DNA of 64,000 bases, taken from assembly GCA_017993955.1 (NCBI GenBank), contig JAGOLR010000004.1, forward strand, positions 3,601 to 67,600, read 5' to 3'. How positions within the stretch are numbered: position 1 is the first letter of the stretch; every line of letters starts with the position of its first letter. Of this stretch, positions 1-62,204 are shown piece after piece. Below the pieces are notes generated by a model, which searched no databases, had not been told where the DNA came from, and saw only the letters and a program-made list of their open reading frames with translations. The stretch comes from Candidatus Omnitrophota bacterium. Its GTDB lineage: Bacteria > Omnitrophota > Gorgyraeia > 2-01-FULL-45-10. A program made the position numbers and the translations under genes.

Positions 1-1667
1 TGGAACTCCTTACGGTAGATTATCGCTTCCTTCTTAGGCGTCCGGAACCTGTGAAGGCCGATATAGTCTTTATCGACATGGCCGAAGATTCCATAGATGC
101 CATAGGCCGCTGGCCCTGGCCCAGGAAATGGCATGCTGCACTTACCAGGATACTTTCCGAGTATGACCCTAAGGCAGTGGCGTTTGACGTGGTATTCGCC
201 GAACCGCAGGACGAGGTTAACGATGCTACCTTCGAAGAAGCATTGAAACTTGCGCAGAACGTGTACCTGCCTCTATCTTATGAACTGAGAGGCCGCACGG
301 GCGATAAGGTCTACGAGGGCGAAGGCGTCCAGTCTATAATAAGGCCCCTGGAGCGTTTTTCACAATGGTCAGCCGGTACCGGGCATATAAGCGCCGTTCC
401 GGATAGCGACGGAATCCTCCGGCGCGTATTTCCCATAATATCATCCGGTGACACCAAGACATATCAGCTTGGTTTCAGGCTTGCCTGCGATGCGCTTGGT
501 ATCAGGGAAAGCGATGTAATATTGGATCCCAAAGGGCATAATATAAGATTGCGTTCGGCGAAAGGCAAAGATATCAAGATACCGCTAGACGATAATAACG
601 AGATGATAATAAATTGGAAATCGCGCTGGGGCAAGGAGTTGCCCCATTACTCGTTCATAGATATCATACGCTCTTACGGCATGATAAAAGAAGGCCAGAA
701 GCCTATAGTGGATCTTGGGTTGCTAAAAGGTAAGATATGCATAGTCGGACTTACGGCTCTCGGCCTTATCGATATAAAGCCCGTACCTATTGAAAGCACA
801 TATCCCGCAGTAGGCGTAAACGCCATGGTGGCGGCGAGTCTCCTTAATAAAGATTTTGTTCGAACGACAAATTCTTGGGCCAATATACTTATAATTCTGG
901 CAGTGTCCATATTTTTCACTTTCCTGCTTTCCGAACTGCGGCCTCTTGGCGGCATGGCCGTAGCCGCATTCAGTATAATAGGTTATTTTCTATTATCATC
1001 TGCCATATTCGGGATATTCGGTCTCCTGGTTATAACGTTCTACCCGATGCTTGCCATATTCCTGTCGTATATCATTACGGCGGCTTATACGCAAGTGCTG
1101 CAAACCGTAGAAAGGTCCAGGCTTTTCAAGCAGGCTACCAGGGACGGTCTTACATCCCTTTATAATGTGCGACATTTCAACCTGCTTCTGGAGGCCGAGA
1201 TGAAGAGCGCTTCATTCGACAAGAACAGGCGGCTTTCCATAATGATGTTCGATATAGATAATTTCAAGAAATTGAACGATACCTATGGTCACCAATCCGG
1301 CGATGTCGTGCTAAAAGACTTTGCCAAGGTAATGCAGTCCAGATGCAGGCAGACAGATATCGTGGCAAGATACGGGGGTGAGGAATTCATAATATTGCTT
1401 CCGGGAGCCGGCAAGAAAGAGGCTGTGGAAGTTGCCGAAAAAATACGCATTGCGTTCGAAGGCAGAAAACCCAGACTTGGTAATGACACGGTCGTAACGA
1501 CTGCCAGTATAGGCGTTACGGAGTTCAGCGGGGAAAAGACAAGGGAAGAGTTGGTAGAGAAGGCTGACAAGGCGCTTTACCATTCAAAGCATACCGGAAA
1601 GAACAAGGTCTCGGTTTATGAGCCCGGAATGGAGAAGGCGCCTCCTCCACCTCCGGCTGCGCACTAA
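1..1667 (+). CDS. Diguanylate cyclase with CHASE2 sensor domain and GGDEF domain; the 5' end is truncated by the window edge (the reading frame is open back to base 3)
   Basis: N-terminal CHASE2-like motif GRWPWPR, a transmembrane block, and the GGDEF active-site motif RYGGEEF. The C terminus is proline-rich (PPPPPAAH). The frame upstream of the annotated M at 51 has no stop codon. Confidence 0.85.
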   Translation, partial: ELLTVDYRFLLRRPEPVKADIVFIDMAEDSIDAIGRWPWPRKWHAALTRILSEYDPKAVAFDVVFAEPQDEVNDATFEEALKLAQNVYLPLSYELRGRTGDKVYEGEGVQSIIRPLERFSQWSAGTGHISAVPDSDGILRRVFPIISSGDTKTYQLGFRLACDALGIRESDVILDPKGHNIRLRSAKGKDIKIPLDDNNEMIINWKSRWGKELPHYSFIDIIRSYGMIKEGQKPIVDLGLLKGKICIVGLTALGLIDIKPVPIESTYPAVGVNAMVAASLLNKDFVRTTNSWANILIILAVSIFFTFLLSELRPLGGMAVAAFSIIGYFLLSSAIFGIFGLLVITFYPMLAIFLSYIITAAYTQVLQTVERSRLFKQATRDGLTSLYNVRHFNLLLEAEMKSASFDKNRRLSIMMFDIDNFKKLNDTYGHQSGDVVLKDFAKVMQSRCRQTDIVARYGGEEFIILLPGAGKKEAVEVAEKIRIAFEGRKPRLGNDTVVTTASIGVTEFSGEKTREELVEKADKALYHSKHTGKNKVSVYEPGMEKAPPPPPAAH

Positions 1668-1682
1668 TTTCTAATTTTATTA

Positions 1683-3023
1683 TTATGCGGCAAGTCTTTT
1701 GTTAAGATCGCGGGCGAGGTCTTTTAAACGCTGAATTCTTACTGACTCCTCCGCATGGTAGAGAGGGAAAACGCTGTTATTGTGAATGAGTGGATCGGAA
1801 TCGGCTTTAAGGCCAGATTTTTTGTAATCAGGTGTTCCTGGTATCGGTGAATATTCTTCCAGATGTATCCGCAAACCTTCTTTTGACACGAACCTTACCG
1901 CTTCTTCGATCTCATCCATGGATTGGCCGGGAAGTCCTATAAGTAAATAAACACCTATCTCAGACCTGTCATAACCTGCCTTTGTAAGGTTTCTAACGGC
2001 TGCCTCGAAATCTTTATTTGTAGTCTTTCCGCCTGTAGAGAGTTGTCTTTCCTCGCGGCTCGTTTCCAGAGCGAGGCGAGGCCTTTGGAAACCGGACTCT
2101 TTCATGATGCGGGCCACATTCTCCGTTAGAAATTTATTATGAAGACCATTCGGGGTGAGGAAGTTGGCTTTGACGCCTTTCTCAATAATGCCTGAGGCTA
2201 TCTTAAGAAAATGTTCTTCGGCTTTAAATAAAAGCGCGTCATCATAGAAAGCAAAATTACATATTCCCATCGTGTTGTGGAAATATACTATCTCTTCGAT
2301 TACGAGTTCCGGCGGTTGCCTGTGAAATATTTCGTCTACCAGATACCAGCCGCAGTATGTGCATCTGAAAGGGCATCCATGAGATGTCTTCAGTGTTATA
2401 TATGGTATATCCCGATATAGGTCATAGGCTGGAAAAGTCTGCGGCAGTAGTCTTTTGGGGTCATCTATGAGCCTGCCGCCCAGTATTTTATCCAGGAATT
2501 CTATAGCTTTAGATATATCGGTTCCTTTGAATATGTGATCAGCGCCGCTTAATGAGTTGGCGTGATCGTAACAGAGGTTAGGGTAATTCCCGCCTAGAAC
2601 TACAGGCGATCCGGGAAATATTGCTTTGAGGAGCACTATCATATCTATATACGCGGGATACCAGTATGTCATTCCTGTAGTGACCAATATTATATCCGGA
2701 GCGCTTTCCTCCCCGAGGATATTCTTTACCGTCTGGATTGGCAGGCCGTATCTTTTGAACCGGCGGGGGGTATCTTTGAATGCGGGGGGTTTATCTATTG
2801 CCTCATATTGGTATGGGCCGCTGCCGTATGTATTGTGCGGATTTTTTTTAACATTGTCAGTTATGGCGGGATGGAACCTGTCAAGGCAATCTAGAAGCCT
2901 TACGGTACAACCCAGTCTTCTTAAGACACCGCCGATCCGGAGAAGGCCTAATGGCTTCGACCATAGGTCGTAGGCGGCGAAATCGTATATCCATGGGTTT
3001 ACAAGGAGTGCGCGGATTTGCAT
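1683..3023 (-). CDS. B12-binding-domain radical SAM protein
   Basis: CxxxCxxC radical-SAM motif (CPFRCTYC) in the middle of the protein. The N-terminal ~200 aa look like a B12-binding Rossmann-type domain, typical of class B radical SAM enzymes. Confidence 0.7.
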   Translation of the reverse strand: MQIRALLVNPWIYDFAAYDLWSKPLGLLRIGGVLRRLGCTVRLLDCLDRFHPAITDNVKKNPHNTYGSGPYQYEAIDKPPAFKDTPRRFKRYGLPIQTVKNILGEESAPDIILVTTGMTYWYPAYIDMIVLLKAIFPGSPVVLGGNYPNLCYDHANSLSGADHIFKGTDISKAIEFLDKILGGRLIDDPKRLLPQTFPAYDLYRDIPYITLKTSHGCPFRCTYCGWYLVDEIFHRQPPELVIEEIVYFHNTMGICNFAFYDDALLFKAEEHFLKIASGIIEKGVKANFLTPNGLHNKFLTENVARIMKESGFQRPRLALETSREERQLSTGGKTTNKDFEAAVRNLTKAGYDRSEIGVYLLIGLPGQSMDEIEEAVRFVSKEGLRIHLEEYSPIPGTPDYKKSGLKADSDPLIHNNSVFPLYHAEESVRIQRLKDLARDLNKRLAA

Positions 3024-3039
3024 CCTGATCGCTGAGGGG

Positions 3040-3429
3040 TTATTTCACGAGGTTTGATACTTCGGCTGAGATATCATCGCCCTTTTTTATGAATGCCACT
3101 CCGACATTGTATTGTCCGTCGTCGTTTTCTTCTATGCGTACCACCTTGCCGACGATCTTGTCGAGGACGATGAGGGCATTCTCTTCGATCTCCTTACATA
3201 TCTGGGTGGTCCTGTAGTCCAGGTCGAGGGCCAGTATGCTGGATATCTCAGGCAGATATTTGCTGGTGAATAGGATCCCCGATGCGCTTAGATTCTTGGA
3301 TACTGCGTTGACCAATTTTGACAGGGTTGCTTTATCACGCGAAGCTCCGACTATTTTGAAATTGATCGGTTTTTCGTGTTTATATCTGAAAAATTCTCGC
3401 CTTTCCGCGCCCGGATAGTTTTCGTTCAT
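3040..3429 (-). CDS. PilZ-domain protein (c-di-GMP receptor)
   Basis: RxxxR motif (RREFFR) followed about 30 aa later by the D/NxSxxG motif (NLSASG). The gene lies 16 nt upstream of the radical SAM gene on the same strand. Confidence 0.65.
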   Translation of the reverse strand: MNENYPGAERREFFRYKHEKPINFKIVGASRDKATLSKLVNAVSKNLSASGILFTSKYLPEISSILALDLDYRTTQICKEIEENALIVLDKIVGKVVRIEENDDGQYNVGVAFIKKGDDISAEVSNLVK

Positions 3430-3504
3430 TCGGCCCTCCTAGAGTTAGTTAGATTTTACATAAGATAAGGCTTGAAAGCAAGAGAAAATGAGGGCGGTTG
3501 GGGC

Positions 3505-4566
3505 CTATGCCTCGATAATATTATAAATGGTCTTCCCGAGCCCATGCTCCCCTGCGTAATCGATCATATCGTTAAATATATCCCGATCTTTTGCGAAGAA
3601 ATCGGTCTTCTTATTTTTTGTTATCATATCTATCGTGGCTTGTTCTATGGCGAGTATGTCATACGAGCCAAGAAAGCCTATGTTTTCGGATACCATTATA
3701 TCGTCTTTTGAAGATATGCAATCGCATTCCTTTGTGATGTCGAGCGCGCTTGTTATGAAAAACTTATTTTTAAAACGAGAGAGCACGAACTTCGCTACGT
3801 CGACCATTCTCCTTGAAAAGACATGCGGGTCCTCATCCCAATTCAATAATATTGCGTTAAATTTACAGGCGCAAAGGCACTCGCCGCATCCCACGCATAT
3901 AGATTGATCTATTCCGGCCTTTTTATCGGAGATCGTTATCGCCCGTACCGGGCATATCTTTATGCATTGCCCGCATCCGGTGCACGATCTTGTTATAACG
4001 CTGGGCTTTAAGGAGGAGTGCTGGACTTGTTTTGTCGGTCTGCAAGCCATACCCATAGCTATGTTTTTTATAGCCCCGGCATATTTTGAAACTATATGTC
4101 CAGTCGCGTGTGTTATAACGACCAGGCTCTCAGTCATCCCTACAAATGACGGGACTTTTATTTTGGATATATCGGGCGAACCGATATCATACTCCTTGCC
4201 GTCGTTGCCGAATATTCCGTCTGCGATTATAAACGGGGCTCCGATCCTGGAATATCCGAAACCTTTCTTCTCGGCCAGCGATAGATGGTCTACCGCGTTT
4301 TGGCGTTCACCCTTGTAAATTACAGATGTGTCGAACAGGAAAGGCTTCGCTCCGCACTTTTTTATCTGGGTTATTACTATCCCTACGAGTTCCGGACTGA
4401 CATGATGAACGCATCCGGAATCGCCTATAGTGATCTTTACCGGCACGTATTCGCCTTTGGCGAATTTTTTGAAAGGGTCTGCCTTAGCCAGGAGTTTTTT
4501 AAGGGCTATTAGCCTATCTTCGGGCCTATTCGTATTTACAGGGGAGAGGTAGACGTCGCTTTTCAT
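3505..4566 (-). CDS. DUF362 domain protein with two 4Fe-4S ferredoxin motifs
   Basis: N terminus resembles the DUF362 family (MKSDVY...KPFLFDT...). It contains CTGCGQCIKICP and CVGCGECLCACKF ferredoxin-type cysteine clusters. Its start overlaps the stop of the upstream MBL gene by 4 nt. Confidence 0.7.
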   Translation of the reverse strand: MKSDVYLSPVNTNRPEDRLIALKKLLAKADPFKKFAKGEYVPVKITIGDSGCVHHVSPELVGIVITQIKKCGAKPFLFDTSVIYKGERQNAVDHLSLAEKKGFGYSRIGAPFIIADGIFGNDGKEYDIGSPDISKIKVPSFVGMTESLVVITHATGHIVSKYAGAIKNIAMGMACRPTKQVQHSSLKPSVITRSCTGCGQCIKICPVRAITISDKKAGIDQSICVGCGECLCACKFNAILLNWDEDPHVFSRRMVDVAKFVLSRFKNKFFITSALDITKECDCISSKDDIMVSENIGFLGSYDILAIEQATIDMITKNKKTDFFAKDRDIFNDMIDYAGEHGLGKTIYNIIEA

Positions 4567-5303
4567 ATCTCTATCTCTTTTCCGTCCGTTGCGGCGACGG
4601 TATTACCGAATATGCGCTTTGCTATATTTTGCGCCTCCAGGCGGTCTTCCAAAGACGGGTATCTGGCCGGGTCAAAGTGGTATAATACCAGCATCTTGGC
4701 GCCCGACTCTGCAATGGCCGTTGCGGCGGACTCAGGATTTAAATGCGAAGACCCTTTCGTCTCTTCTCCCGATCTGAAAGCGCACTCGGTTATTACCAGG
4801 TCGGCATCACGCGATAGCTCTCTTAAGCCCTGGCAATCTTCTGTATCGGTGCAGAAGCTTGCGTATTTTTTTGCGGAAGATACTCTAAATCCATAACAGG
4901 GCACCGCGTGGGAGAGTTTTTTAAACTCAAAACCGAAAGGTAGCCGTAAATGTTCATCGTACTCATGCAACCTCACAAGCGGCGCCATGCTTTCCAGGGG
5001 TCTGGTGAAAGGCTTTGCGAGTAAAGACTCGAGTATTTTCTTAGAACCCGGCTGTGTGTATATATCGATTCCCTGAGGATAGCGGAATATCGGCAGCACA
5101 TGGAGCCCTATGATATGATCCAGGTGGAGATGGCTTATAAACAGGTATATAGGCTTGTCGTCTTTTATATATCTGCCGAGTTTGTGCAGGCCGAATCCCG
5201 CGTCAAAGATTATATGCTCGGATCCCGTTTCTGCCAGAACGCACGGAGTGTTGCCGGTCTCGGTATCGTACCATCCGTTAGTGCCAAGAAATATTATCTT
5301 CAT
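4563..5303 (-). CDS. MBL-fold metallo-hydrolase (RNase Z / PhnP-like)
   Basis: HxHxDH metal-binding motif (SHLHLDHIIG) and the typical MKIIFLGT...GNTP N terminus. Confidence 0.7.
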   Translation of the reverse strand: MKIIFLGTNGWYDTETGNTPCVLAETGSEHIIFDAGFGLHKLGRYIKDDKPIYLFISHLHLDHIIGLHVLPIFRYPQGIDIYTQPGSKKILESLLAKPFTRPLESMAPLVRLHEYDEHLRLPFGFEFKKLSHAVPCYGFRVSSAKKYASFCTDTEDCQGLRELSRDADLVITECAFRSGEETKGSSHLNPESAATAIAESGAKMLVLYHFDPARYPSLEDRLEAQNIAKRIFGNTVAATDGKEIEI

Positions 5304-5317
5304 TGTGACCGTTGTAT

Positions 5318-5962
5318 CTATAGGTATTTAACCATTTGCAGATATTCAAAACTGTTGCTTCCGCACTTTATAGTAGGAAGTTTTCGTTCTATCTCAAAAC
5401 CGAGCTTGCGTCTCAGCGATATGGCGGGTGTATTGACATTTTTTACGTTTACGACTACTCTTTTAAGACCCCTGACTCTGGCCTGGTTTTCAGATATGCT
5501 GAACAATTTAGCTCCCAGGCCTCTGGCCCTGAACTTAGGGTATAGGGCAGAATTGGAGGAATACATATCGGTCTTTTTTATTCTGGCGAATACAGGGGCC
5601 ATCTTGATCAAAAAAAACAGTTTTTTTATTGTATGCCATTTCAGATTTTTAGCTAAAAGAATAAGGAACGGAATCAGCCCCCGTTCTTTTGCGCTGTGGT
5701 CATAAAATAAGGTCATGCCGGCGACCTCACCGTCGCATTCCATGAAATAAGTGTGCTGGTAGCTGAATAAATTATTAGGATGGCGGAATAGATCCTGGAG
5801 TATCGGCAGTGGGTCCGGGCCGAAAAGGATATTATAATATTCCGGAGCAGTGTACATTACAAGCCTTGAGAAATCTGCGGCATCTTGAGGGCGTCCGGGC
5901 CTTATGACTATATTACCGGTATCATCGTTTTGCTGTAATATAGTTTGCGATGAAGGCTGCAC
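5318..5962 (-). CDS. GNAT family N-acetyltransferase (putative)
   Basis: The C-terminal region carries a GNAT-like acetyl-CoA binding pattern (ARVRGLKRVVVNV...RRKLGFEI). The domain assignment is tentative. Confidence 0.45.
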   Translation of the reverse strand: MQPSSQTILQQNDDTGNIVIRPGRPQDAADFSRLVMYTAPEYYNILFGPDPLPILQDLFRHPNNLFSYQHTYFMECDGEVAGMTLFYDHSAKERGLIPFLILLAKNLKWHTIKKLFFLIKMAPVFARIKKTDMYSSNSALYPKFRARGLGAKLFSISENQARVRGLKRVVVNVKNVNTPAISLRRKLGFEIERKLPTIKCGSNSFEYLQMVKYL

Positions 5963-5971
5963 TTTATTCCC

Positions 5972-6358
5972 TTATCTCTTGGCCCTGTCTTTTCTTCCCG
6001 GAATGAAACTGTCTGTCTGGCCTATCTTTCCTTTTATATCGTTGTAAAGCGCGTTTATAGCTATTTTCCGGTCTTTTATCTCCTTATCCACTTCTTCTTT
6101 TACCTTTTCTATAAGCGCTTTATCTTTGGTCTTTTTGGCCTCATCGAGTCTTTTGCGGGCGGCTATTATCGCATTGCGTTCCTGGGCTATTTTGGCTTTG
6201 GCGTTTAAAACATAATCTTTAGCGCTCTCCTTTTCGCCGGCACGGGCCAAAAGGTCGTTGCGATCAAGGACCTCAGCTTTAGACACCCCGGGTACGGTAA
6301 GGCCTAGTGCCAAAATCATAAAAGTTAAATAGAAGGATATCCTATACGGAATTCCCAC
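5972..6358 (-). CDS. Secreted coiled-coil protein, OmpH/Skp-like periplasmic chaperone candidate
   Basis: Signal peptide followed by a Lys/Glu-rich coiled-coil of ~100 aa. Confidence 0.35.
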   Translation of the reverse strand: MGIPYRISFYLTFMILALGLTVPGVSKAEVLDRNDLLARAGEKESAKDYVLNAKAKIAQERNAIIAARKRLDEAKKTKDKALIEKVKEEVDKEIKDRKIAINALYNDIKGKIGQTDSFIPGRKDRAKR

Positions 6359-6398
6359 GGTTTTATCTCCCGCGTTTATTTTTACAAAGCAAAAAGAA

Positions 6399-7382
6399 CT
6401 AAAGCCACTTTCTGCGTTTAAAGTATATAAGCATGGAGGTGGTTATAAGTACCATGGTAATTATTATGATCGGATAGCCCATTGGGCTATCGAGTTCGGG
6501 CATGTGTTTAAAATTCATGCCGTATATACTTGCGATTAATGTCAGCGGCATCATTATGGTGGTTATTACGGTGAGGGTTTTCATTATCTCATTCAACCGG
6601 TTAGAGACTATAGATACATATGCTTCCATTGCGCCGGCTATTATATCGCGCATCGCTCCTACGGTATCGTTGAAACGCACCATGTTATCGTAGACATTAC
6701 GGAAGTAAGTGAGGCTGGAAGGCATGATGAATTTGAATGTTCCGCGGGTAAGGAGGCTTATTATGTCCGCCTGCGGACCTACGGTACGCCTTAAGTTCAT
6801 GATCTCATTTTTTATATAGTATATCTTTTTTAACGTATCCTGATTGGGAGATTTGAAAAGCTCATCGCTCATGTCGTCTACGGTCTTGTCGAATTCGGTG
6901 AGTATAGGGAAGTAGTTGTCTATGCATGAGTCCAGAATGGAATACAGGAGCATATCGGAGCCGTACATCATCATCGGCGACTGCTTGCGGACCCTCTCTT
7001 TGCAGGTGCATATGGAAGCGAATGATTCGGTGTGGAATGTGATGAGGAAGTTCTTGCCGAGGCAGCAATCGAGCTCCGTCATTTGCATTCTTCCGCTCTG
7101 TCCGTTATTAGATGCCTGCGACGCTTTTATAGAGAATATGGCCAGGAATAGATAGTCAGGGAATTCTTCTATCTTCGGTCTGGCGTTAGGCATTATGAAG
7201 TCTTCTATGGTCAGGGGGTGAAGATTGAATACATTCGTGAGGAGATCTATATCGCTATCGTCGATGTCGGATACGTCAAGCCACAATGTGGCCTTTTCGT
7301 CTTTTACGGCGTCAGTCATCTCCTGGATCGTCAAGTCGGTTTTGAATCCGCGTTCCGGATGGTAGTAGTAATTTTCGTACAT
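6399..7382 (-). CDS. corA: Magnesium/cobalt transporter CorA
   Basis: YGMNF signature immediately before two C-terminal TM helices; overall CorA architecture. Confidence 0.85.
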   Translation of the reverse strand: MYENYYYHPERGFKTDLTIQEMTDAVKDEKATLWLDVSDIDDSDIDLLTNVFNLHPLTIEDFIMPNARPKIEEFPDYLFLAIFSIKASQASNNGQSGRMQMTELDCCLGKNFLITFHTESFASICTCKERVRKQSPMMMYGSDMLLYSILDSCIDNYFPILTEFDKTVDDMSDELFKSPNQDTLKKIYYIKNEIMNLRRTVGPQADIISLLTRGTFKFIMPSSLTYFRNVYDNMVRFNDTVGAMRDIIAGAMEAYVSIVSNRLNEIMKTLTVITTIMMPLTLIASIYGMNFKHMPELDSPMGYPIIIITMVLITTSMLIYFKRRKWL

Positions 7383-7464
7383 ATATATCCTGGATTTATC
7401 TTAAATTGTTATATTATTTTACCCCAAAATATAAAAGCTGTCCATTCATTATAGCGGTGTAAAG

Positions 7465-8382
7465 TCAACTCTTCCGGTTCCATATACCTGCCAAAATAGC
7501 CGCGCTAATTATGCACCATGTAGCAAAGATGGCATTAGGTATAGCTGCCTGCGGGGAGGCGTGCTTTATGGCAAGGACCGCGCCAAGTCCCGCGTTTTGC
7601 ATGCCTACCCCTATAGCAAGGGTGCGCTTCTGGCGTTTATCAAACCTGAATAGCATACCTGCCAAATAACCCAATATAAGTCCGGATAGATTCAGAATGA
7701 CTACGGCTATAAAGATCTTTCCCGTCAAGTGTTTCAGAGAATCTCTGTTAAGGGCTAGAACAAAGCCGCAAATAAAAGCGATAAATACGCTGGAGAGGGC
7801 CGGAAATATAGCGCGCATCTTCTCAACCTTTTTGCCGAACCTATGCCGGGTTATTAATCCTGCGCAAAGCGGTATTATTACCATGAAAATTATACTGATG
7901 AACATAGGCCAAAAACTTACCGGTATATACTCCCGCGCCAAGATATAGGTAAGAGCCGGTGTGACGATGGGGGAGATGAGAGTGGTTCCTGTGGTAAGCG
8001 CTACGGAGAGCGCTACATCGCCTTCGGCTATATAAGTCATCACGCCGGCCGCCATAGCGTCCGGCACCGCGCCGGCCAATATAAGGCCGAATGCCAAATC
8101 ACGCGGAAGGTCCAGCGTTTTTGCTATTATGAATGCGGAAACAGGCATGATGGCAAATTGTGCGATTATCCCTAAAAATACTATTCGCGGTTTTCTAAAT
8201 ATTGGTTCGAAATCTTTGTGGGAAAGGAGGGTTCCTATCCCGAACATTGTCAGGGCGAAGAACCATTCGATGAAAGGTTTCAGGATTATGAAAAGATCCG
8301 GAAAGAAGTATGCCGATATTGCGGTAGCGGCCACCCATAATACAAGGTATCGTGTGATAAAGTTGGATACTTTGTTTAACAT
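7465..8382 (-). CDS. Bile acid:sodium symporter (BASS) family transporter
   Basis: Polytopic membrane protein whose N terminus (FPDLFIILKPFIEW...) and size fit the BASS/ACR3-related family. Confidence 0.6.
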   Translation of the reverse strand: MLNKVSNFITRYLVLWVAATAISAYFFPDLFIILKPFIEWFFALTMFGIGTLLSHKDFEPIFRKPRIVFLGIIAQFAIMPVSAFIIAKTLDLPRDLAFGLILAGAVPDAMAAGVMTYIAEGDVALSVALTTGTTLISPIVTPALTYILAREYIPVSFWPMFISIIFMVIIPLCAGLITRHRFGKKVEKMRAIFPALSSVFIAFICGFVLALNRDSLKHLTGKIFIAVVILNLSGLILGYLAGMLFRFDKRQKRTLAIGVGMQNAGLGAVLAIKHASPQAAIPNAIFATWCIISAAILAGIWNRKS

Positions 8383-8383
8383 G

Positions 8384-9535
8384 CTATTCGATTGTCTTTA
8401 CCGTATTATCTCCGGCCTTTATCCAATCCTCGTCTGTCACAAAATGGGCTATCGTCTCCCGGCCGTTGTATGAGTAAAGCACATGTATTAATCCGTACCT
8501 GTCCTGCATCAAAGAGGGGTAGGTATTTGGATATTGGGTATCGTATTCTATGACTCTCCTGTAAGGCCAGGTCTTCCCTTCGTCGAGCGACAGCGATAAT
8601 ACCATCTCATGAAGATTCTTTTTGTCATCATTGGATGCGAGAACTATGTGACCGTTATTGAGCCTGATCATTTCGAGGCATGTACCCGGATTGTCGACAT
8701 TGGAATATTTGCGGGTTTTCCAGTTTGAGCCTTGATCAGGACTTATGGCCTGCCAGGCAAGTCTCGGAGGCATGCCCGTTCTCATAAGGGCGAATAAACT
8801 CTTGTCGGAGCGCTCTATTATCGTAGGCTGTATACCGAAAAATAAGAGCATATATTTTGGACCCTGCCAGGTCATCCCACCGTCCTTGGATATGGCTACT
8901 GCAGACGAGGTGCTGAGGTCGGTGTATATAGGCAGTATTATATCTCCGTTACTGAGCCTAAGTAGGTGGGTTTTGGGCAGAAACCATGTCAGGTTTTCTA
9001 TTTGCCGGGCTTTACCCCATGTGCGTCCGAAGTCGTCTGACGTCTTCATGTATATCTCGTCTTTTACAAGTTTCCATATCCTTTTTTCGGTGGCCCAGAA
9101 CAGGAATAATTTATTATCCGTTCCCAGATAAAGGACAGGGTTCTTGTCGGAATGCCCTCGGTCATAATGAACTACGTAAGGTTTTGTCCATTCGCTTGCT
9201 CCCGGGAGCCTTCTGGATCCCCATATCATGGAGTGCGGACTCCATTTAGGAGGCGCGTACCATACAGCGAATAATCCTCCATCGGGAAGTTCGACTATGC
9301 TAGAGGCATGATTTGAGTGGTAATTCGCCGGAGGGAATATAAACTCTTTATAAGGCAGCTTTGGATATATCTCTGACGGCCTATCGGTTATCAATTCTCT
9401 GATCGGGATGGTTTTATTTTTGGATAGAATTGAGGTATCCGCGTTCACATTATCTTTATATGACATCCTGGCCATAAGGAAGACTATGGACGATATGAAT
9501 GCTACGGATACAACAAGATATGAGTTTCTTTTCAT
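8384..9535 (-). CDS. BNR/Asp-box repeat glycosyl hydrolase (sialidase-like), membrane anchored
   Basis: Three Asp-box repeats SxDxGxTW (TSDDFGRTWG, SKDGGMTWQ, SLDEGKTWP) and an N-terminal signal anchor. Confidence 0.65.
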   Translation of the reverse strand: MKRNSYLVVSVAFISSIVFLMARMSYKDNVNADTSILSKNKTIPIRELITDRPSEIYPKLPYKEFIFPPANYHSNHASSIVELPDGGLFAVWYAPPKWSPHSMIWGSRRLPGASEWTKPYVVHYDRGHSDKNPVLYLGTDNKLFLFWATEKRIWKLVKDEIYMKTSDDFGRTWGKARQIENLTWFLPKTHLLRLSNGDIILPIYTDLSTSSAVAISKDGGMTWQGPKYMLLFFGIQPTIIERSDKSLFALMRTGMPPRLAWQAISPDQGSNWKTRKYSNVDNPGTCLEMIRLNNGHIVLASNDDKKNLHEMVLSLSLDEGKTWPYRRVIEYDTQYPNTYPSLMQDRYGLIHVLYSYNGRETIAHFVTDEDWIKAGDNTVKTIE

Positions 9536-9621
9536 AATACGGCTCTACCTCTTTCTTTATAAAAGGAGTGGCTCTGCCAAAGCAGGGGGAATATGTATGG
9601 GGCTAATTTTTTAGGCTGGCC

Positions 9622-10323
9622 TTATAAGGATCTTTTTTGAAAACGTCCTTCGGCTATTTCCCAGTTTATATTCTTAAAAAACGATTCTATGTATTTTGCC
9701 TTATCGAGTTCGTAATCCGTTAAATATGCATGTTCGAAGACGTCCATGACCAATAAAGGGATTGCCCCCGTTATATTTCCGGTGTTATGTTCATTTACCC
9801 ATATATTAAGCAATTTACCGGTCTTGGGCTCAAAGTATAGCACCGCCCATCCTATGCCCCTCATGGAGCCCACTCCGATGAAATCCTTTTTCCATCTCTC
9901 AAAAGTGCCGAATTCCTCGATTATTTTTTTGTGTAAGGCGCTTTCGGCGCTTAAAGTGTCCTTGCCTCCAAGGTTTTCAAAGTAATATTCATGCAATAAC
10001 ATGCCGTTATATTCCCATCCGAGGCGGCGTTCAAGTTCGGCATATTCTACGGTCTTTTCGCTGTTATCGTTTAGCAGGGCATCCAACTTGTCGAATAATA
10101 TATTGGTATTTTTTACATATCCCTGGTACAGCTTGAAGTGGTTATCGAGCAGTTTATTGCTAAAACCTTCCATGCCTAAAAGATATGAGAAGTCTTTGGA
10201 TTTAAATGGGGAGTTGAGGGGAATTGAGTCGGATTTTTCGATTTGGTCTTCCGAAATAGCTATTCCGTAAGAAGCCACGACAATAGCCAAGATGCCGAAA
10301 ACCAGGGCCAGGTATCTTTTCAT
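9622..10323 (-). CDS. Fe/Mn superoxide dismutase family protein with signal peptide
   Basis: C-terminal DVFEHAYL matches the SOD metal-binding motif D-x-WEHAYY. Internal His-containing motifs and an N-terminal signal peptide are present. Confidence 0.6.
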   Translation of the reverse strand: MKRYLALVFGILAIVVASYGIAISEDQIEKSDSIPLNSPFKSKDFSYLLGMEGFSNKLLDNHFKLYQGYVKNTNILFDKLDALLNDNSEKTVEYAELERRLGWEYNGMLLHEYYFENLGGKDTLSAESALHKKIIEEFGTFERWKKDFIGVGSMRGIGWAVLYFEPKTGKLLNIWVNEHNTGNITGAIPLLVMDVFEHAYLTDYELDKAKYIESFFKNINWEIAEGRFQKRSL

Positions 10324-10489
10324 GTATATAGTCCTCCCATATTTTATCGATTATATACTCATATAGTTTTAGTATCAAGATAAAAAGCATCTCTTGTAAG
10401 TAAATAATTTGCATTTTTCGCTATTATATGTTAACCCTTTAGATAGATATTTTGATTAGACCAATCCTATTGTGACGGCAGGAGTACTT

Positions 10490-11617
10490 ATGATAGACGT
10501 GAAGCGCTTAGTAAAATTGACGCAAGATTTGATACACATAGATTCGCATAATCCCGGTGGCAATGAACGCGATATCGCGCTTTTTGTTAAACGATATCTG
10601 GAAGCTTTGGGTGTAAAGGTCAAACTGTATGAATTCAAAAAAGGGCGTACAAACGTGGTGGCGAGGTTAAGAGGCAGTGGTCAGCGGCGCTCTCTTCTTA
10701 TAACCCCGCACCTGGATACCGTCCCTCCGGGCAAGGGTTGGAAGATGCCTCCCTTTACCGGTAGGGTATCGGGCGGGAAGATATACGGGCTTGGCGCTAC
10801 GGACTGCAAGTGTAACCTTGCCGTAAGCCTGGAGGTCATAAGGAGCTTGGTGGAAGATCGCGTAGTTTTAGGATACGACCTTATTTTTGCCGCCACCGCG
10901 GATGAGGAAGCTGGCTCAGTTCTGGGCATAATACCTCTTTTGGATAAGCGTATCCTGAACCCGGATGCGGCTCTGGTTCTCGATGTAGACGACTTTAAAG
11001 TTATAGTAGCCCAGAAAGGGCTTATACATTTAAAAGTTAAGCTTAAAGGAAAGAGTTCGCATGCAGCTTATCCAAATCGCGGAATAAACGCCATAGAAGC
11101 GGCCGTGAAGATACTTAGCAAGCTTAGATCGAAAAGGCGACCTTTTAAGAAAAATAAGTATCTTGGGCCTCCGACTTTTAACATAGGAACGATATCCGGC
11201 GGCGACAAGGTTAATATGGTGGCGGGCTGGTGCGATTTTGAGCTCGATTTTAGATTCTTGCCGGGGCAAGATCCGAAAGATATCATAAAAGGACTCCGGG
11301 ATATCATAAAAAAACATGCTTACGGATATAATATCGAGATAAAGAGCGTCCAGCAGGATTATCTATTGGATGCGAGGCATCCTATCGTGCGAACGCTTAA
11401 GCGGTCTTTAAAGAAGTGCGGTCTAATCCCAAAAGTCACGGGGTCTGAGGCCGCGACTACGATAACATTTTTTCAGCACAAAAATATACCGGCGGTTGCT
11501 TGCGGTTTCGGCGTGGACGGTTGCGAACATTCGGCCGATGAGTATGTAACAATAGCAAATCTTTCTAAAGGCGCAAAGGTATTGGAGAGTTTTTTGAAGG
11601 ACTACGAATTTGATTAA
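10490..11617 (+). CDS. M20 family metallopeptidase (ArgE/DapE-type deacylase)
   Basis: HxD...D...EE...H metal-site pattern (ITPHLDTVP, ATDCK, ADEEAGS) and ArgE/DapE-like length. Start placed at the ATG downstream of an AGGAG RBS. Confidence 0.75.
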   Translation: MIDVKRLVKLTQDLIHIDSHNPGGNERDIALFVKRYLEALGVKVKLYEFKKGRTNVVARLRGSGQRRSLLITPHLDTVPPGKGWKMPPFTGRVSGGKIYGLGATDCKCNLAVSLEVIRSLVEDRVVLGYDLIFAATADEEAGSVLGIIPLLDKRILNPDAALVLDVDDFKVIVAQKGLIHLKVKLKGKSSHAAYPNRGINAIEAAVKILSKLRSKRRPFKKNKYLGPPTFNIGTISGGDKVNMVAGWCDFELDFRFLPGQDPKDIIKGLRDIIKKHAYGYNIEIKSVQQDYLLDARHPIVRTLKRSLKKCGLIPKVTGSEAATTITFFQHKNIPAVACGFGVDGCEHSADEYVTIANLSKGAKVLESFLKDYEFD

Positions 11618-15836: not shown

Positions 15837-15881
15837 ACAGTGGCTCCCCCGCGAGGACTCGAACCTCGGACACTCTGGTTA

Positions 15882-16471
15882 CGATCTGACTCCGATTACT
15901 CGGAGAGTCGGACTATACCATTGCCATATTCTTTGAGATTGCTTCGTCGGCCTGACAGCCTTCTTGCAATGACAACAGAACTTAGGCAGCGAGTCTCTAG
16001 TCTCTGCACCTTTCCCACGATTGGTGGGGCTTGGCTCAGGATTGACCTGATCTCTCAGGCTTTCCCTGAATTTACTCGCTTTTCACTCTGGCGTTTCTAC
16101 CAGAGGCTGCTAACTGAGCGTGAAGCTCTCGATGACAATTGGCACATATCAACATGCATTTATCGAGCTCATTCTTAACCGTATCCCAGCTTCTGGTATA
16201 GCCTTTCGCAGAAATACCAAACTTTTTGCCGGTTAAATTGTTATGATGAAACTCCAACGCATCGAGACAGCGATTGTAACCACATATTTCGCATTTGCCG
16301 CCTTTATACTCGACTGCCATTTGCCGGACTTCCTTTCTCCGGGCATGGACAGCGCGTACAAGATACTGACGCCTATCGCTGTACTTGCGCTTTTCTTTTC
16401 CTGCCAATTGTCACCTCCTTCTTCCCGCTGGCACGTGCCGAGTTTTGCACTCGGCACTTCGTGCCTCGTGC
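15882..16471 (-). mobile_element. Group I intron (~590 nt) in the anticodon loop of tRNA-Asn, with an embedded HNH ORF
   Basis: The exon ends in U before the splice site, the intron begins with G, and the intron ends with G (omega-G). An R-like element CAGAGACTAG (plus 15997-16006) and an S-like element GGTATAGTCCG (plus ~15906-15916) can form P7 (GACTA/TAGTC). A P9 hairpin GACTCCG-AGTAAT-CGGAGTC sits just before the terminal G. Confidence 0.7.
16072..16407 (-). CDS. HNH homing endonuclease encoded inside the tRNA intron
   Basis: CEICGYN...LEFHHNN...CANCHRELH is a classic HNH/His-Me finger with two Cys pairs. TTG start preceded by AAGGAGGTGA at SD spacing; an alternative ATG lies at 16320. 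Confidence 0.75.
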   Translation of the reverse strand: MAGKEKRKYSDRRQYLVRAVHARRKEVRQMAVEYKGGKCEICGYNRCLDALEFHHNNLTGKKFGISAKGYTRSWDTVKNELDKCMLICANCHRELHAQLAASGRNARVKSE

Positions 16472-16588
16472 ACAGCCAGATGCTCTACCGACTGAGCTAC
16501 AGGGGAGTGTGTATAAAGAGCGAAAAATCTGTGATGATGATAGCATAGGGGAGGGGCTTTTTCAATTATTTTTTCCCTATACAGGCTT

Positions 16589-60698: not shown

Positions 60699-62204
60699 AT
60701 GAAAAAAATATTTGTTAAAACTTTTGGGTGTCAGGGTAATGCTCAGCCGGATTCTAAGCGGCGGTCCAATTTCTCGCTCGTTCCGAGCTCGAAATTGTCC
60801 TCGCCAGAATCCGGCATGACATCCAAATGTCCGCATGTATATATCAAGACATTTGGATGTCAGGCGAACGTCAGGGATTCGGAGTTTGTCGAAGGGATCC
60901 TGTTGGAACGCGGGTTCGCAAAGGCAAAGGACATTGAGGCTGCCGATGTTATTCTGTTCAATTCCTGTTCGGTAAGAAAACACGCAGAGGACAAGCTCTT
61001 CAGTAATATAGCCGAACTAAAATTCCTCAAAAAGAAGAACCCCAGGCTTATTATTGGTCTTATGGGATGCACCGCGCAGAATTATAAGTCCGAGGCATTA
61101 AAACGCGCTCCTCTAGTTGATTTTGCCTGCGGCCCGGGCAATGAGGCGGAGATACCCGATATATTAGCCGGAATAATAGATGACCGGTGCAGGGTGGTGG
61201 CTGTCGACAAGGTACATGCCCCCAGGCCTGAGCTATTCCCGAAATACCGGGAAGGCGATTTTAAGGCATATGTCTCGATAAGCGAAGGATGCGATAATTT
61301 CTGCTCATACTGCATAGTCCCGTATGTTCGCGGGCGTGAGAGATCGCGTAAAATGGGCGATATAGTGCGCGAGGTAAAGGACCTTGCGGAACGTGGGTTT
61401 AAAGAGATAACCCTCTTAGGGCAGAACGTCAACTCGTACGGACGTTCAGCGTATAGCGTAGAGCGCATAGCGCATATGAACGATAAAAAACTATCCGCTA
61501 AACGCTATCCGCTAAACGCTAAACACGGTGATTTTATCCATCTATTAGAGGCGCTCAACCGCATCAATGGTATCAAACGCATCCGATTCATGACGAGCCA
61601 TCCCAAAGATGCTACGGAAGACTTGTTCAAGGCTATGAGGGATCTTGATAAGGTATGCGAGCACCTGCATCTTCCGCTGCAATCCGGGTCTGACAGGATA
61701 TTGAAGCTTATGAATCGAGGATATACAAGCGGGAAATATATGCGTCTTGTGGATAGCTATAAAAAGGTCGTTCCCGGGGGCAGTATTACGAGCGATGTAG
61801 TGGTAGGATTCCCGACCGAAACGGATCGGGATTTTAAAAGAAGCTTGAAACTGATGGAAGAAGCCGGGTTTGACAGCACATTCCTCTTTAAATATTCACC
61901 CCGTCCTCCCGCAAAATCGGCTAAGCTTGTAGACGATGTATCCGAAAAAGTGAAGAAAGAGAGGCTGGACATATTGCTTAAGGCGCAATGCCGCATTTCC
62001 GAATCGCGAAATGCCGTTTTGGTAGGTAAGGTCGTAGAGATGCTGGTAGAAGGTAATAGCGATCGTTCTCCCGGCGCTTTGATCGGTAGGTCTAGGGAGA
62101 ATAAAAACATAATATGCAAGGCCTCGGATGAGATGATAGGCAAAATAATAAATGTGAAAGTCAATTCGGTTACGCCGTATGCCTTAAAGGGAGAGATCGT
62201 ATGA
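60699..62204 (+). CDS. miaB: tRNA-i6A37 methylthiotransferase MiaB; the N-terminal ~40 aa look like a diverged duplication, so the functional start may be the ATG near 60816
   Basis: UPF0004 motif TFGCQAN, radical SAM CxxxCxxC (CDNFCSYC), and a C-terminal TRAM domain. Confidence 0.85.
   Translation: MKKIFVKTFGCQGNAQPDSKRRSNFSLVPSSKLSSPESGMTSKCPHVYIKTFGCQANVRDSEFVEGILLERGFAKAKDIEAADVILFNSCSVRKHAEDKLFSNIAELKFLKKKNPRLIIGLMGCTAQNYKSEALKRAPLVDFACGPGNEAEIPDILAGIIDDRCRVVAVDKVHAPRPELFPKYREGDFKAYVSISEGCDNFCSYCIVPYVRGRERSRKMGDIVREVKDLAERGFKEITLLGQNVNSYGRSAYSVERIAHMNDKKLSAKRYPLNAKHGDFIHLLEALNRINGIKRIRFMTSHPKDATEDLFKAMRDLDKVCEHLHLPLQSGSDRILKLMNRGYTSGKYMRLVDSYKKVVPGGSITSDVVVGFPTETDRDFKRSLKLMEEAGFDSTFLFKYSPRPPAKSAKLVDDVSEKVKKERLDILLKAQCRISESRNAVLVGKVVEMLVEGNSDRSPGALIGRSRENKNIICKASDEMIGKIINVKVNSVTPYALKGEIV

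What the first reader, a model, noticed from the sequence alone, without database searches (positions are those of the whole stretch)
1..5962. c-di-GMP-linked cluster of a CHASE2-GGDEF cyclase beside a GNAT, MBL hydrolase, DUF362 Fe-S protein, PilZ and B12 radical SAM operon
An active-site-intact diguanylate cyclase (GGEEF) with an extracytoplasmic CHASE2 sensor ends 16 bp from a convergent operon on the minus strand. The DUF362/ferredoxin gene overlaps the MBL-fold hydrolase gene by 4 nt (ATGA), and the PilZ gene sits 16 nt upstream of the radical SAM gene. A PilZ c-di-GMP receptor sits between a B12-binding radical SAM enzyme and a DUF362 double-ferredoxin protein, with an MBL hydrolase and a GNAT acetyltransferase. 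This composition (redox enzyme, radical SAM, hydrolase, acyltransferase) resembles small-molecule or peptide modification cassettes, with c-di-GMP as the probable input. I know of no described pathway with this gene set. No precursor-peptide-like small ORF was evident in the 75-bp gaps.
Basis: inference. Interest (0 to 1): 0.55.

Follow-up and report, generated by a model that had tools for sequence, protein, structure and literature searches.

The report
Mixed gene row, not a pathway
The genes are all there as described, but comparison with hundreds of related genomes shows they are independently conserved genes that sit side by side in only one Omnitrophota lineage. They are not a dedicated c-di-GMP-controlled modification pathway.

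Summary
Observation confirmed. Every gene call, motif and spacing holds: GGEEF plus RxxD I-site, PilZ RxxxR/NxSxxG, CxxxCxxC, two 4Fe-4S motifs, HxHxDH, the ATGA overlap, and 15/16/75-nt gaps.

The organism is a Candidatus Omnitrophota bacterium. The five minus-strand genes are the tail of a ten-gene co-directional row that also holds SOD, a sialidase-like gene, a transporter and CorA.

- **Radical SAM:** it belongs to an unnamed family found in more than 560 species of many phyla. Its neighbours there are unrelated.
- **DUF362 (LarA-like fold):** its orthologues normally sit in a different operon: HD-GYP, B12-rSAM, small rSAM, DUF362, PNP-like, small rSAM.
- **MBL:** this is a 246-aa RNase Z/YhfI-type phosphodiesterase found across Omnitrophota with variable neighbours.
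- **GNAT:** an FkbM-type methyltransferase replaces it in close relatives.
- **Relatives:** one keeps MBL-DUF362-PilZ with no rSAM. Another keeps rSAM and GGDEF with no PilZ, DUF362 or MBL.
- **PilZ:** it carries its own conserved promoter-like motif, which splits the row into separate transcription units.

What survives is an ordinary cyclase-plus-PilZ signalling pair, and a modest lead that c-di-GMP genes recur beside DUF362. Interest is low to moderate.

The parts
1..1667 (+). CHASE2-GGDEF diguanylate cyclase. The 5' end is cut by the window edge, with about 55 aa missing. It has GGEEF and an RxxD I-site.
   Evidence: Pfam CHASE2 147.8 bits and GGDEF 149.8 bits. Motifs. The full 609-aa gene with an N-terminal TM helix is in L176.
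1683..3023 (-). Radical SAM enzyme of 446 aa with an N-terminal Rossmann (B12-binding-like) domain. It belongs to an unnamed, widely distributed family.
   Evidence: Pfam. No NCBIfam family reaches its cutoff. At least 563 species matches. The AF2 model has pLDDT 87.6 and its top Foldseek hit is AprD4 at TM 0.71.
3040..3429 (-). Stand-alone PilZ c-di-GMP receptor of 129 aa, with an AGGAGG Shine-Dalgarno at 3435-3440.
   Evidence: Pfam 29.2 bits, above the 22.5 cutoff. RxxxR and NxSxxG are present and conserved in orthologues.
3453..3481 (-). Promoter-like motif: TTGCTT, 17 nt, TAAAAT. It is conserved upstream of PilZ orthologues.
   Evidence: Alignments of the PilZ upstream regions from window, L092, L005, L091, L109, L117, L090 and L008. 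The simple sigma-70 scan did not flag it.
3505..4566 (-). DUF362 protein of 353 aa with an inserted 2x[4Fe-4S] ferredoxin domain. Its fold is LarA-like.
   Evidence: Pfam. Every Foldseek PDB hit at E<1e-4 is from the LarA family. Orthologues are 52-93% identical in 80 loci.
4563..5303 (-). Short MBL-fold phosphodiesterase of the RNase Z/YhfI/Apyc1 type, 246 aa, with HxHxDH.
   Evidence: Pfam and NCBIfam. PDB sequence hits to RNase Z, 6kns and 1zkp. Orthologues.
5318..5962 (-). GNAT acetyltransferase of 214 aa. This position in the row is variable.
   Evidence: Pfam Acetyltransf_1, 32.1 bits. Methyltransf_21 takes its place in L005 and L091. GNAT is kept in L090.
5972..10323 (-). The rest of the same co-directional row: a 128-aa signal-peptide protein, CorA, an SBF/PanS-like transporter, a BNR_2 sialidase-like protein and Fe/Mn SOD.
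   Evidence: The best sigma-70-like match in 1-10600 lies at 10378-10350 (-), upstream of the first gene.

Best explanation
The region is a lineage-specific row of independently conserved genes in a compact Candidatus Omnitrophota genome. It is not one pathway.

**Shown**
- Each large enzyme is conserved widely on its own and has different neighbours elsewhere. These are the orphan AprD4/MgmA-like radical SAM, the LarA-fold DUF362 Fe-S protein and the short RNase Z/YhfI-type MBL phosphodiesterase.
- The acyltransferase position is variable.
- PilZ carries its own conserved promoter-like motif.

**Inferred**
- The row is read as at least two units: ...GNAT-MBL-DUF362, and PilZ-rSAM.
- The only plausible functional coupling is an ordinary local c-di-GMP pair.
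  - The membrane CHASE2 domain senses an extracytoplasmic cue.
  - The GGEEF domain makes c-di-GMP, under I-site feedback.
  - The nearby single-domain PilZ binds c-di-GMP and acts on an unidentified partner by protein contact.
- If PilZ has a local target, DUF362 is a better candidate than the rSAM. DUF362 is PilZ's most persistent neighbour, and its orthologues elsewhere are operonic with an HD-GYP c-di-GMP phosphodiesterase.
For: **rSAM**
- At least 563 species hits across many phyla.
- Partner genes lie near it in only one Omnitrophota sub-lineage: L005/6, L007, L008/9 and L011.
- The commonest neighbours elsewhere are Dtd (14 of 77), MnmE (6 of 77) and AIRC (10 of 73).
- Contexts in L001-L004 are unrelated.

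**DUF362**
- 34 of 66 downstream neighbours are PNP_UDP_1, usually with a 4-nt overlap. 23 of 63 upstream neighbours are a small rSAM.
- MBL is adjacent only in L090-L093.

**MBL**
- Orthologues at 53-59% identity sit among unrelated genes.

**Variable membership**
- L091 has no rSAM.
- L007 has no PilZ, DUF362 or MBL.
- In L090 an 818-aa rSAM and a 1964-aa reverse-strand gene are inserted.
- GNAT alternates with Methyltransf_21.

**Promoter-like motif before PilZ**, plus a hairpin after DUF362 in L005.

**c-di-GMP pair**
- Motifs are intact.
- The window holds a single GGDEF and a single PilZ.

**DUF362 lead**
- 16 HD-GYP genes occur in 736 kb of flanks. All lie within 3 kb of DUF362 and 7 within 80 nt.
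- PilZ lies directly downstream of DUF362 in window/L092, L005, L091, L109 and L117.
Against: - Short gaps and the ATGA overlap are compatible with co-transcription of at least MBL-DUF362 and PilZ-rSAM in this organism.
- The order MBL-DUF362-PilZ-rSAM|GGDEF persists down to about 56-68% protein identity (L005, L090). That is deeper than random gene order usually survives.
- The promoter motif is inferred from sequence only.
- Loci were sampled from metagenome fragments and are not phylogenetically independent, so the counts are not probabilities.
- No function is established for the rSAM or DUF362, so a lineage-specific joint role cannot be excluded.
Confidence: 0.6

Rival explanations
1. DUF362-centred c-di-GMP module. 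c-di-GMP controls the LarA-fold Fe-S enzyme DUF362, or the process it serves. In this lineage the control runs through the adjacent PilZ and the nearby cyclase. In other Omnitrophota it runs through an operonic PAS-HD-GYP phosphodiesterase.
For: - DUF362 then PilZ is the most persistent adjacency, seen in 5 of 7 PilZ contexts, including L109 and L117 with otherwise different flanks.
- HD-GYP has intact HD/GYP motifs. It lies within 3 kb of DUF362 in 16 of 78 loci and nowhere else in those flanks. In L156 and L157 it overlaps DUF362 by 4 nt.
Against: - PilZ has its own promoter-like motif. It keeps that motif when a different gene lies upstream, as in L090 and L008.
- The shared intergenic motif suggests the DUF362-PilZ junction arose once, so the lineages are not independent.
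- In L011 the PilZ genes follow a T2SS-type ATPase with no DUF362.
- A preprint reports small pilZ genes next to giant-gene, T2SS-like and carbohydrate-uptake loci across Omnitrophota (10.1101/2023.11.21.568195).
Confidence: 0.2
2. PilZ-rSAM pair. PilZ is co-transcribed with the radical SAM enzyme and gates it in response to c-di-GMP made by the convergent cyclase.
For: - Gaps between PilZ and the rSAM are 3-20 nt in the window, L008 and L090.
- The convergent rSAM|GGDEF junction is kept in window, L005, L007, L008/L090 and L011.
Against: - L091 keeps PilZ and GGDEF but has no rSAM.
- L007 keeps rSAM and GGDEF but has no PilZ.
- In L109 and L117 PilZ is followed by an MFS_3 transporter instead.
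- rSAM orthologues in more than 75 other loci have no PilZ.
Confidence: 0.1
3. GNAT, MBL, DUF362, PilZ and rSAM form one small-molecule or peptide modification cassette with c-di-GMP as its input.
For: - All five genes are on the same strand with short gaps and an ATGA overlap.
- The full set recurs in the closest relatives: L175 and L176, and L090 with insertions.
Against: - There is no precursor ORF.
- No component co-occurs with the others outside one sub-lineage.
- GNAT is replaceable.
- Unrelated genes are inserted inside the set in L090.
- There is an internal promoter-like motif.
- The row continues into SOD, CorA and transporter genes.
Confidence: 0.07

Closest known systems
Local c-di-GMP signalling pairs: a membrane GGDEF cyclase with a nearby stand-alone PilZ receptor of the YcgR/PilZ type
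   Same: - GGEEF active site, RxxD I-site and CHASE2 between TM helices.
- PilZ with RxxxR and (D/N)xSxxG.
- Close genomic proximity of cyclase and receptor.
   Different: - The two genes are convergent, not co-transcribed.
- The PilZ has no fused output domain and no identified target.
- Binding has not been tested.
AprD4, MgmA, TsrM and other radical SAM enzymes with an N-terminal B12-binding-like Rossmann domain
   Same: - Predicted fold: TM 0.71 to AprD4 (6fd2), then MgmA, TsrM and MiaB/RimO.
- A CxxxCxxC cluster motif.
   Different: - Sequence scores are far below every named family's cutoff. PDB sequence hits are at E of about 1e-5.
- The B12-binding Pfam score is below its threshold. 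AprD4 itself does not use cobalamin, so cobalamin dependence is open.
- The substrate is unknown.
LarA lactate racemase superfamily (DUF2088, nickel-pincer nucleotide enzymes)
   Same: - The DUF362 model matches only LarA-family structures at E<1e-4.
- DUF362 and DUF2088 are in the same Pfam clan, CL0471 (PMC11770544).
   Different: - About 10-12% identity and TM of about 0.46.
- DUF362 has a 2x[4Fe-4S] ferredoxin insertion and extra conserved cysteines (an ECDC motif).
- There is no evidence of a nickel-pincer cofactor.
Class II MBL phosphodiesterases: RNase Z, B. subtilis YhfI and phage Apyc1
   Same: - HxHxDH motif.
- Full-length sequence match to 6kns and 1zkp, and to the C-terminal half of RNase Z.
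- NCBIfam cyclic-nucleotide PDE model at 55 bits.
- Precomputed Pfam Anti-Pycsar_Apyc1 hit.
   Different: - At 246 aa it is shorter than the ~280-320-aa RNase Z chains it matched; whether the RNase Z arm is missing was not checked.
- The substrate (tRNA 3' ends or cyclic nucleotides) was not determined.

Membership tests
GGDEF diguanylate cyclase | GGDEF domain above the Pfam threshold, with a GG(D/E)EF active-site motif | tested here: met
   149.8 bits against a cutoff of 23.8. GGEEF is at residue 458 of the visible protein.
GGDEF diguanylate cyclase | Synthesis of c-di-GMP from GTP | not testable with these tools
   Needs an enzyme assay.
CHASE2 sensor | CHASE2 domain flanked by transmembrane helices, so that it faces outside the cytoplasm | tested here: met
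   Pfam 147.8 bits. Hydrophobic segments follow the domain. The N-terminal TM helix is seen in the full-length copy L176.
PilZ c-di-GMP receptor | PilZ domain above threshold with RxxxR and (D/N)xSxxG motifs | tested here: met
   29.2 bits against 22.5. R11xxxR15 and N46LSASG are present. Both motifs are conserved in seven orthologues.
PilZ c-di-GMP receptor | Binds c-di-GMP | not testable with these tools
   Needs a binding assay.
Cobalamin-dependent (class B) radical SAM | CxxxCxxC radical SAM core | tested here: met
   Radical_SAM at 67.5 bits. C217PFRCTYC.
Cobalamin-dependent (class B) radical SAM | Recognisable cobalamin-binding domain | tested here: inconclusive
   B12-binding scores 27.5 bits, below the 32.1 cutoff. 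The closest fold is AprD4, whose equivalent domain does not bind cobalamin by my recollection. MgmA and TsrM, which do bind it, follow.
Named rSAM families (HpnJ, HpnR, BchE, PhpK, ladderane rSAM, BzaD and others) | Score at or above the NCBIfam curated cutoff | tested here: not met
   The best score is 55.8 bits against a cutoff of 575. HpnJ scores 42 against 577.6 and BchE 38.2 against 481.
DUF362 / LarA-like clan | DUF362 domain above threshold, with a LarA-like fold | tested here: met
   89.5 bits against 24. The 19 best PDB fold matches are all LarA-family.
RNase Z | Score at or above the equivalog cutoff | tested here: not met
   TIGR02651 scores 98.7 bits against 292.95, in two partial stretches.
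Cyclic-nucleotide MBL phosphodiesterase (YhfI/Apyc1 type) | HxHxDH motif and a family-level score | tested here: inconclusive
   The motif is present. NF041851 scores 55.1 bits against a cutoff of 400 but is near full length. 6kns matches at E 3e-13.
Biosynthetic or tailoring gene cluster (RiPP or small-molecule cassette) | The tailoring genes co-occur across independent genomes | tested here: not met
Biosynthetic or tailoring gene cluster (RiPP or small-molecule cassette) | Precursor peptide or scaffold gene | tested here: not met
   No plausible small ORF in the gaps. No scaffold enzyme anywhere in the row.
Single operon | One transcription unit with no internal promoter | tested here: inconclusive
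   The genes share a strand with short gaps. A conserved promoter-like motif precedes PilZ. No transcript data are available.

The most novel reading that the evidence does not exclude
In Omnitrophota, c-di-GMP signalling is wired to the uncharacterised LarA-fold Fe-S protein DUF362. In this lineage the link is an adjacent PilZ receptor and a nearby CHASE2-GGDEF cyclase. In another large clade it is an operonic PAS-HD-GYP phosphodiesterase. DUF362 and the radical SAM and nucleosidase-like enzymes usually encoded beside it would then be a new class of c-di-GMP-controlled redox or cofactor process.
Probability: 0.15. Interest if true: 0.6.

Novelty: new member of a known kind. Interest (0 to 1): 0.27.

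Why it matters
As proposed, a c-di-GMP-gated modification cassette would have been a new output class for c-di-GMP. The comparative data remove most of that case, which saves experimental effort on a cluster that is mainly inherited gene order.

Three things are left:
- A very widespread orphan radical SAM family (more than 560 species) with no named function.
- A conserved Omnitrophota DUF362 operon with rSAM, PNP-like and HD-GYP genes that nobody has described.
- A testable hint that c-di-GMP genes track DUF362.

These are leads for family-level annotation, not a surprise in themselves.

Tried and rejected
- **Riboswitch or other RNA in the gaps:** Rfam found nothing in 1-10600 even at E up to 1.
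- **Simple sigma-70 and terminator scan:** counts did not exceed shuffled controls (28 against 21.8±4.7, and 15 against 11.1±3.2). The scan missed the conserved PilZ motif because its -35 is weak.
- **Named rSAM families** such as hopanoid, BchE and PhpK were rejected on score.
- **DUF362 by sequence against the PDB:** only the ferredoxin insert matched.
- **The usual DUF362 partner genes** (small rSAM, PNP-like, HD-GYP) are not anywhere in the 64-kb window.
- **NJ tree of DUF362:** built to judge whether the PilZ adjacencies are independent, but too poorly resolved to decide.
- **Literature on DUF362:** the only relevant mentions were its use as an outgroup for LarA and its shared Pfam clan; no functional characterisation.


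Full report
**1. The observation**

- Pfam confirms CHASE2 and GGDEF on the plus strand.
- On the minus strand it confirms a radical SAM protein, a PilZ protein, a DUF362 protein with two 4Fe-4S motifs, an MBL-fold hydrolase and a GNAT.
- Every expected catalytic or binding motif is present:
  - GGEEF with an RxxD I-site five residues upstream.
  - PilZ RxxxR and NxSxxG.
  - CxxxCxxC in the rSAM.
  - Two CxxCxxCxxxC motifs in DUF362.
  - HxHxDH in the MBL.
- The spacing is as stated, apart from a 15-nt rather than 16-nt convergent gap. The ATGA overlap is real.

Three corrections apply.
- The cyclase gene is cut by the window edge. The full protein in a near-identical strain is 609 aa and starts with a TM helix.
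- The Pfam B12-binding match of the rSAM is below threshold.
- The right-hand limit of the finding is arbitrary. The same-strand row continues through a 128-aa secreted protein, CorA, an SBF/PanS-like transporter, a BNR_2 sialidase-like protein and an Fe/Mn superoxide dismutase to 10323. That is a functionally mixed row of ten genes.

**2. Source organism**

The closest proteins come from Candidatus Omnitrophota metagenome bins.

**3. The radical SAM enzyme is a widespread singleton**
- It reaches no named NCBIfam family. The best score is 55.8 bits against a cutoff of 575.
- Its family is large and well conserved, with 59% mean column identity among 25 members.
- A scan of one genome per species returned at least 563 relatives. 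They come from Omnitrophota, Bacillota, Thermodesulfobacteriota, Elusimicrobia, Armatimonadota, Atribacterota, Chloroflexota and others.
- I ran tblastn with the window's partner proteins against 89 such loci. PilZ or an adjacent CHASE2-GGDEF gene turned up only in the window's own sub-lineage: L005/6, L007, L008/9 and L011.
- A Pfam census of the immediate neighbours shows D-Tyr-tRNA deacylase (14 of 77), MnmE (6 of 77) and an AIRC-family protein (10 of 73) as the commonest. PilZ is not among the frequent families.
- Individual contexts in a deltaproteobacterium, a Bacillota bin and another bin are unrelated.
- The AlphaFold model is confident (pLDDT 87.6). It resembles AprD4, then MgmA, TsrM and the MiaB/RimO group. 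That fixes the architecture but not the substrate.

**4. DUF362 normally lives in a different operon**

Orthologues are sharply conserved: almost always 353 aa and 52-93% identical. I clustered the neighbours in 78 metagenome loci and annotated them. The recurrent order is:
- PAS-HD-GYP
- a 429-aa B12-binding rSAM, only 24-27% identical to the window's rSAM
- a small PA0069/Rv2578c-like rSAM
- DUF362
- a PNP_UDP_1 protein (34 of 66, usually with a 4-nt overlap)
- a second small rSAM

MBL is adjacent only in the four closest loci. None of the usual partners is in the 64-kb window. The DUF362 model matches only LarA-family structures. That agrees with the shared Pfam clan.

**5. The MBL protein is also a conserved singleton**
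- Orthologues of almost exactly 246 aa occur throughout Omnitrophota. Several sources call them ribonuclease Z or BN.
- By sequence it matches RNase Z, 6kns and 1zkp, and the NCBIfam cyclic-nucleotide phosphodiesterase model below cutoff. By my recollection 6kns is B. subtilis YhfI.
- The class is the MBL phosphodiesterases described alongside Apyc1 (PMC9117128).
- Three orthologue loci at 53-59% identity share none of the window's partners.

**6. How the arrangement decays among relatives**

| Relative | What it keeps |
|---|---|
| Strain-level copies L175, L176 | Everything, though one lacks the SBF transporter |
| L005 (rSAM 66% identical) | The block, with Methyltransf_21 in place of GNAT |
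| L091 | hyp128, Methyltransf_21, MBL, DUF362 and PilZ directly convergent with GGDEF; no rSAM |
| L090 / L008 | GNAT-MBL, then an 818-aa rSAM, DUF362, a ~1960-aa reverse-strand gene, then PilZ-rSAM |
| L007 | rSAM convergent with GGDEF; an unknown 645-aa protein in place of PilZ, DUF362 and MBL |
| L011 | T2SS-type ATPase, two PilZ genes, a sugar transporter, an OprB porin, rSAM, FecR, then GGDEF |
| L109, L117 | DUF362-PilZ followed by an MFS_3 transporter; no rSAM, MBL or GGDEF |

Every pairwise adjacency is therefore broken in at least one relative. The left-hand block (GGDEF, Met_synt_B12, POR subunits, RecR, DnaX) is itself a long conserved stretch. The rSAM|GGDEF junction can be explained as inherited gene order.

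**7. PilZ has its own promoter-like element**

I aligned the region upstream of PilZ from eight loci. It shows cTTGC(t/a)TT, 17 nt, then TAAAAT, TATACT, TACAAT or TAGAAT, followed by AGGAGG.
- The motif is present whether the upstream gene is DUF362 or the divergent giant gene.
- In L005 a strong hairpin lies between DUF362 and the motif.
- In the window the motif is at 3481-3453 on the minus strand.
- This points to PilZ(-rSAM) being a transcription unit separate from GNAT-MBL-DUF362. It is inference from sequence only.

**8. What remains of the c-di-GMP idea**
- The cyclase and PilZ look functional and are the only such genes in 64 kb. A local cyclase-receptor pair is the simplest reading.
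- Beyond that there is one real lead. In 736 kb of DUF362 flanks there are 16 HD-GYP genes with intact motifs. All are within 3 kb of DUF362, 7 are within 80 nt, and 15 are upstream on the same strand.
- DUF362 is also the commonest upstream neighbour of this PilZ.
- Three points count against over-reading this:
  - The loci are not independent.
  - The shared intergenic motif suggests a single origin for the DUF362-PilZ junction.
  - A preprint already reports small pilZ genes beside giant-gene, T2SS-like and carbohydrate-uptake loci across Omnitrophota (10.1101/2023.11.21.568195). The L011 context fits that pattern.

**9. Verdict**

The genes are ordinary members of known superfamilies, two of them without an assigned function. 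The five-gene cassette is not a conserved unit. Interest is low to moderate. The DUF362 and c-di-GMP association and the orphan rSAM family are the only items worth following.

Noticed in passing
window 15841-16506 (-): A tRNA-Thr(CGU) gene is interrupted in its anticodon loop by a 590-nt intron. The intron holds a full-length Rfam group I intron match (15889-16132, 71 bits) and a 111-aa ORF (16072-16407). By eye the ORF has an HNH-like CxxC...HH...CxxCH pattern, but it has no Pfam hit. Default ARAGORN found no tRNA. It was found only when long introns were allowed.
   Followed up: partly
L094-L171 (for example L132 4000-12500, L113, L122): An undescribed conserved Omnitrophota operon surrounds the DUF362 orthologue: PAS-HD-GYP, a B12-binding rSAM (429 aa), a small PA0069/Rv2578c-like rSAM, DUF362, a PNP_UDP_1 nucleosidase-like protein with a 4-nt overlap, and a second small rSAM. 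A convergent polyferredoxin and a second DUF362 paralogue often lie downstream.
   Followed up: partly
L010-L089: The window's rSAM family occurs in at least 563 species of many anaerobic phyla and has no named function. In Thermodesulfobacteriota it often sits next to D-Tyr-tRNA deacylase or directly after mnmE (1-nt gaps), and is convergent with an AIRC (LarB/PurE-like) gene.
   Followed up: partly
window 3453-3481 (-); L005, L008, L090, L091, L092, L109, L117 upstream of PilZ: A promoter-like motif (TTGCnT, 17 nt, TAnAnT) is conserved upstream of PilZ orthologues whatever the upstream gene is. L005 also has a 30-nt perfect hairpin between DUF362 and this motif.
   Followed up: yes
L090 5146-11040 (-); L008 1556-7429 (-): A ~1960-aa protein with no Pfam hit is inserted on the opposite strand between DUF362 and PilZ in two relatives. 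A preprint links Omnitrophota giant genes with adjacent small pilZ genes.
   Followed up: no
L175 5902-6051 versus window 7465-8382: A strain with an identical PilZ protein lacks the SBF/PanS-like transporter gene between BNR_2 and CorA. Its M20 peptidase gene is split into two ORFs.
   Followed up: no
window 60699-62204 (+): A second radical SAM gene in the window is an ordinary MiaB/RimO-type methylthiotransferase (UPF0004, Radical_SAM and TRAM domains). It is unrelated to the finding.
   Followed up: yes
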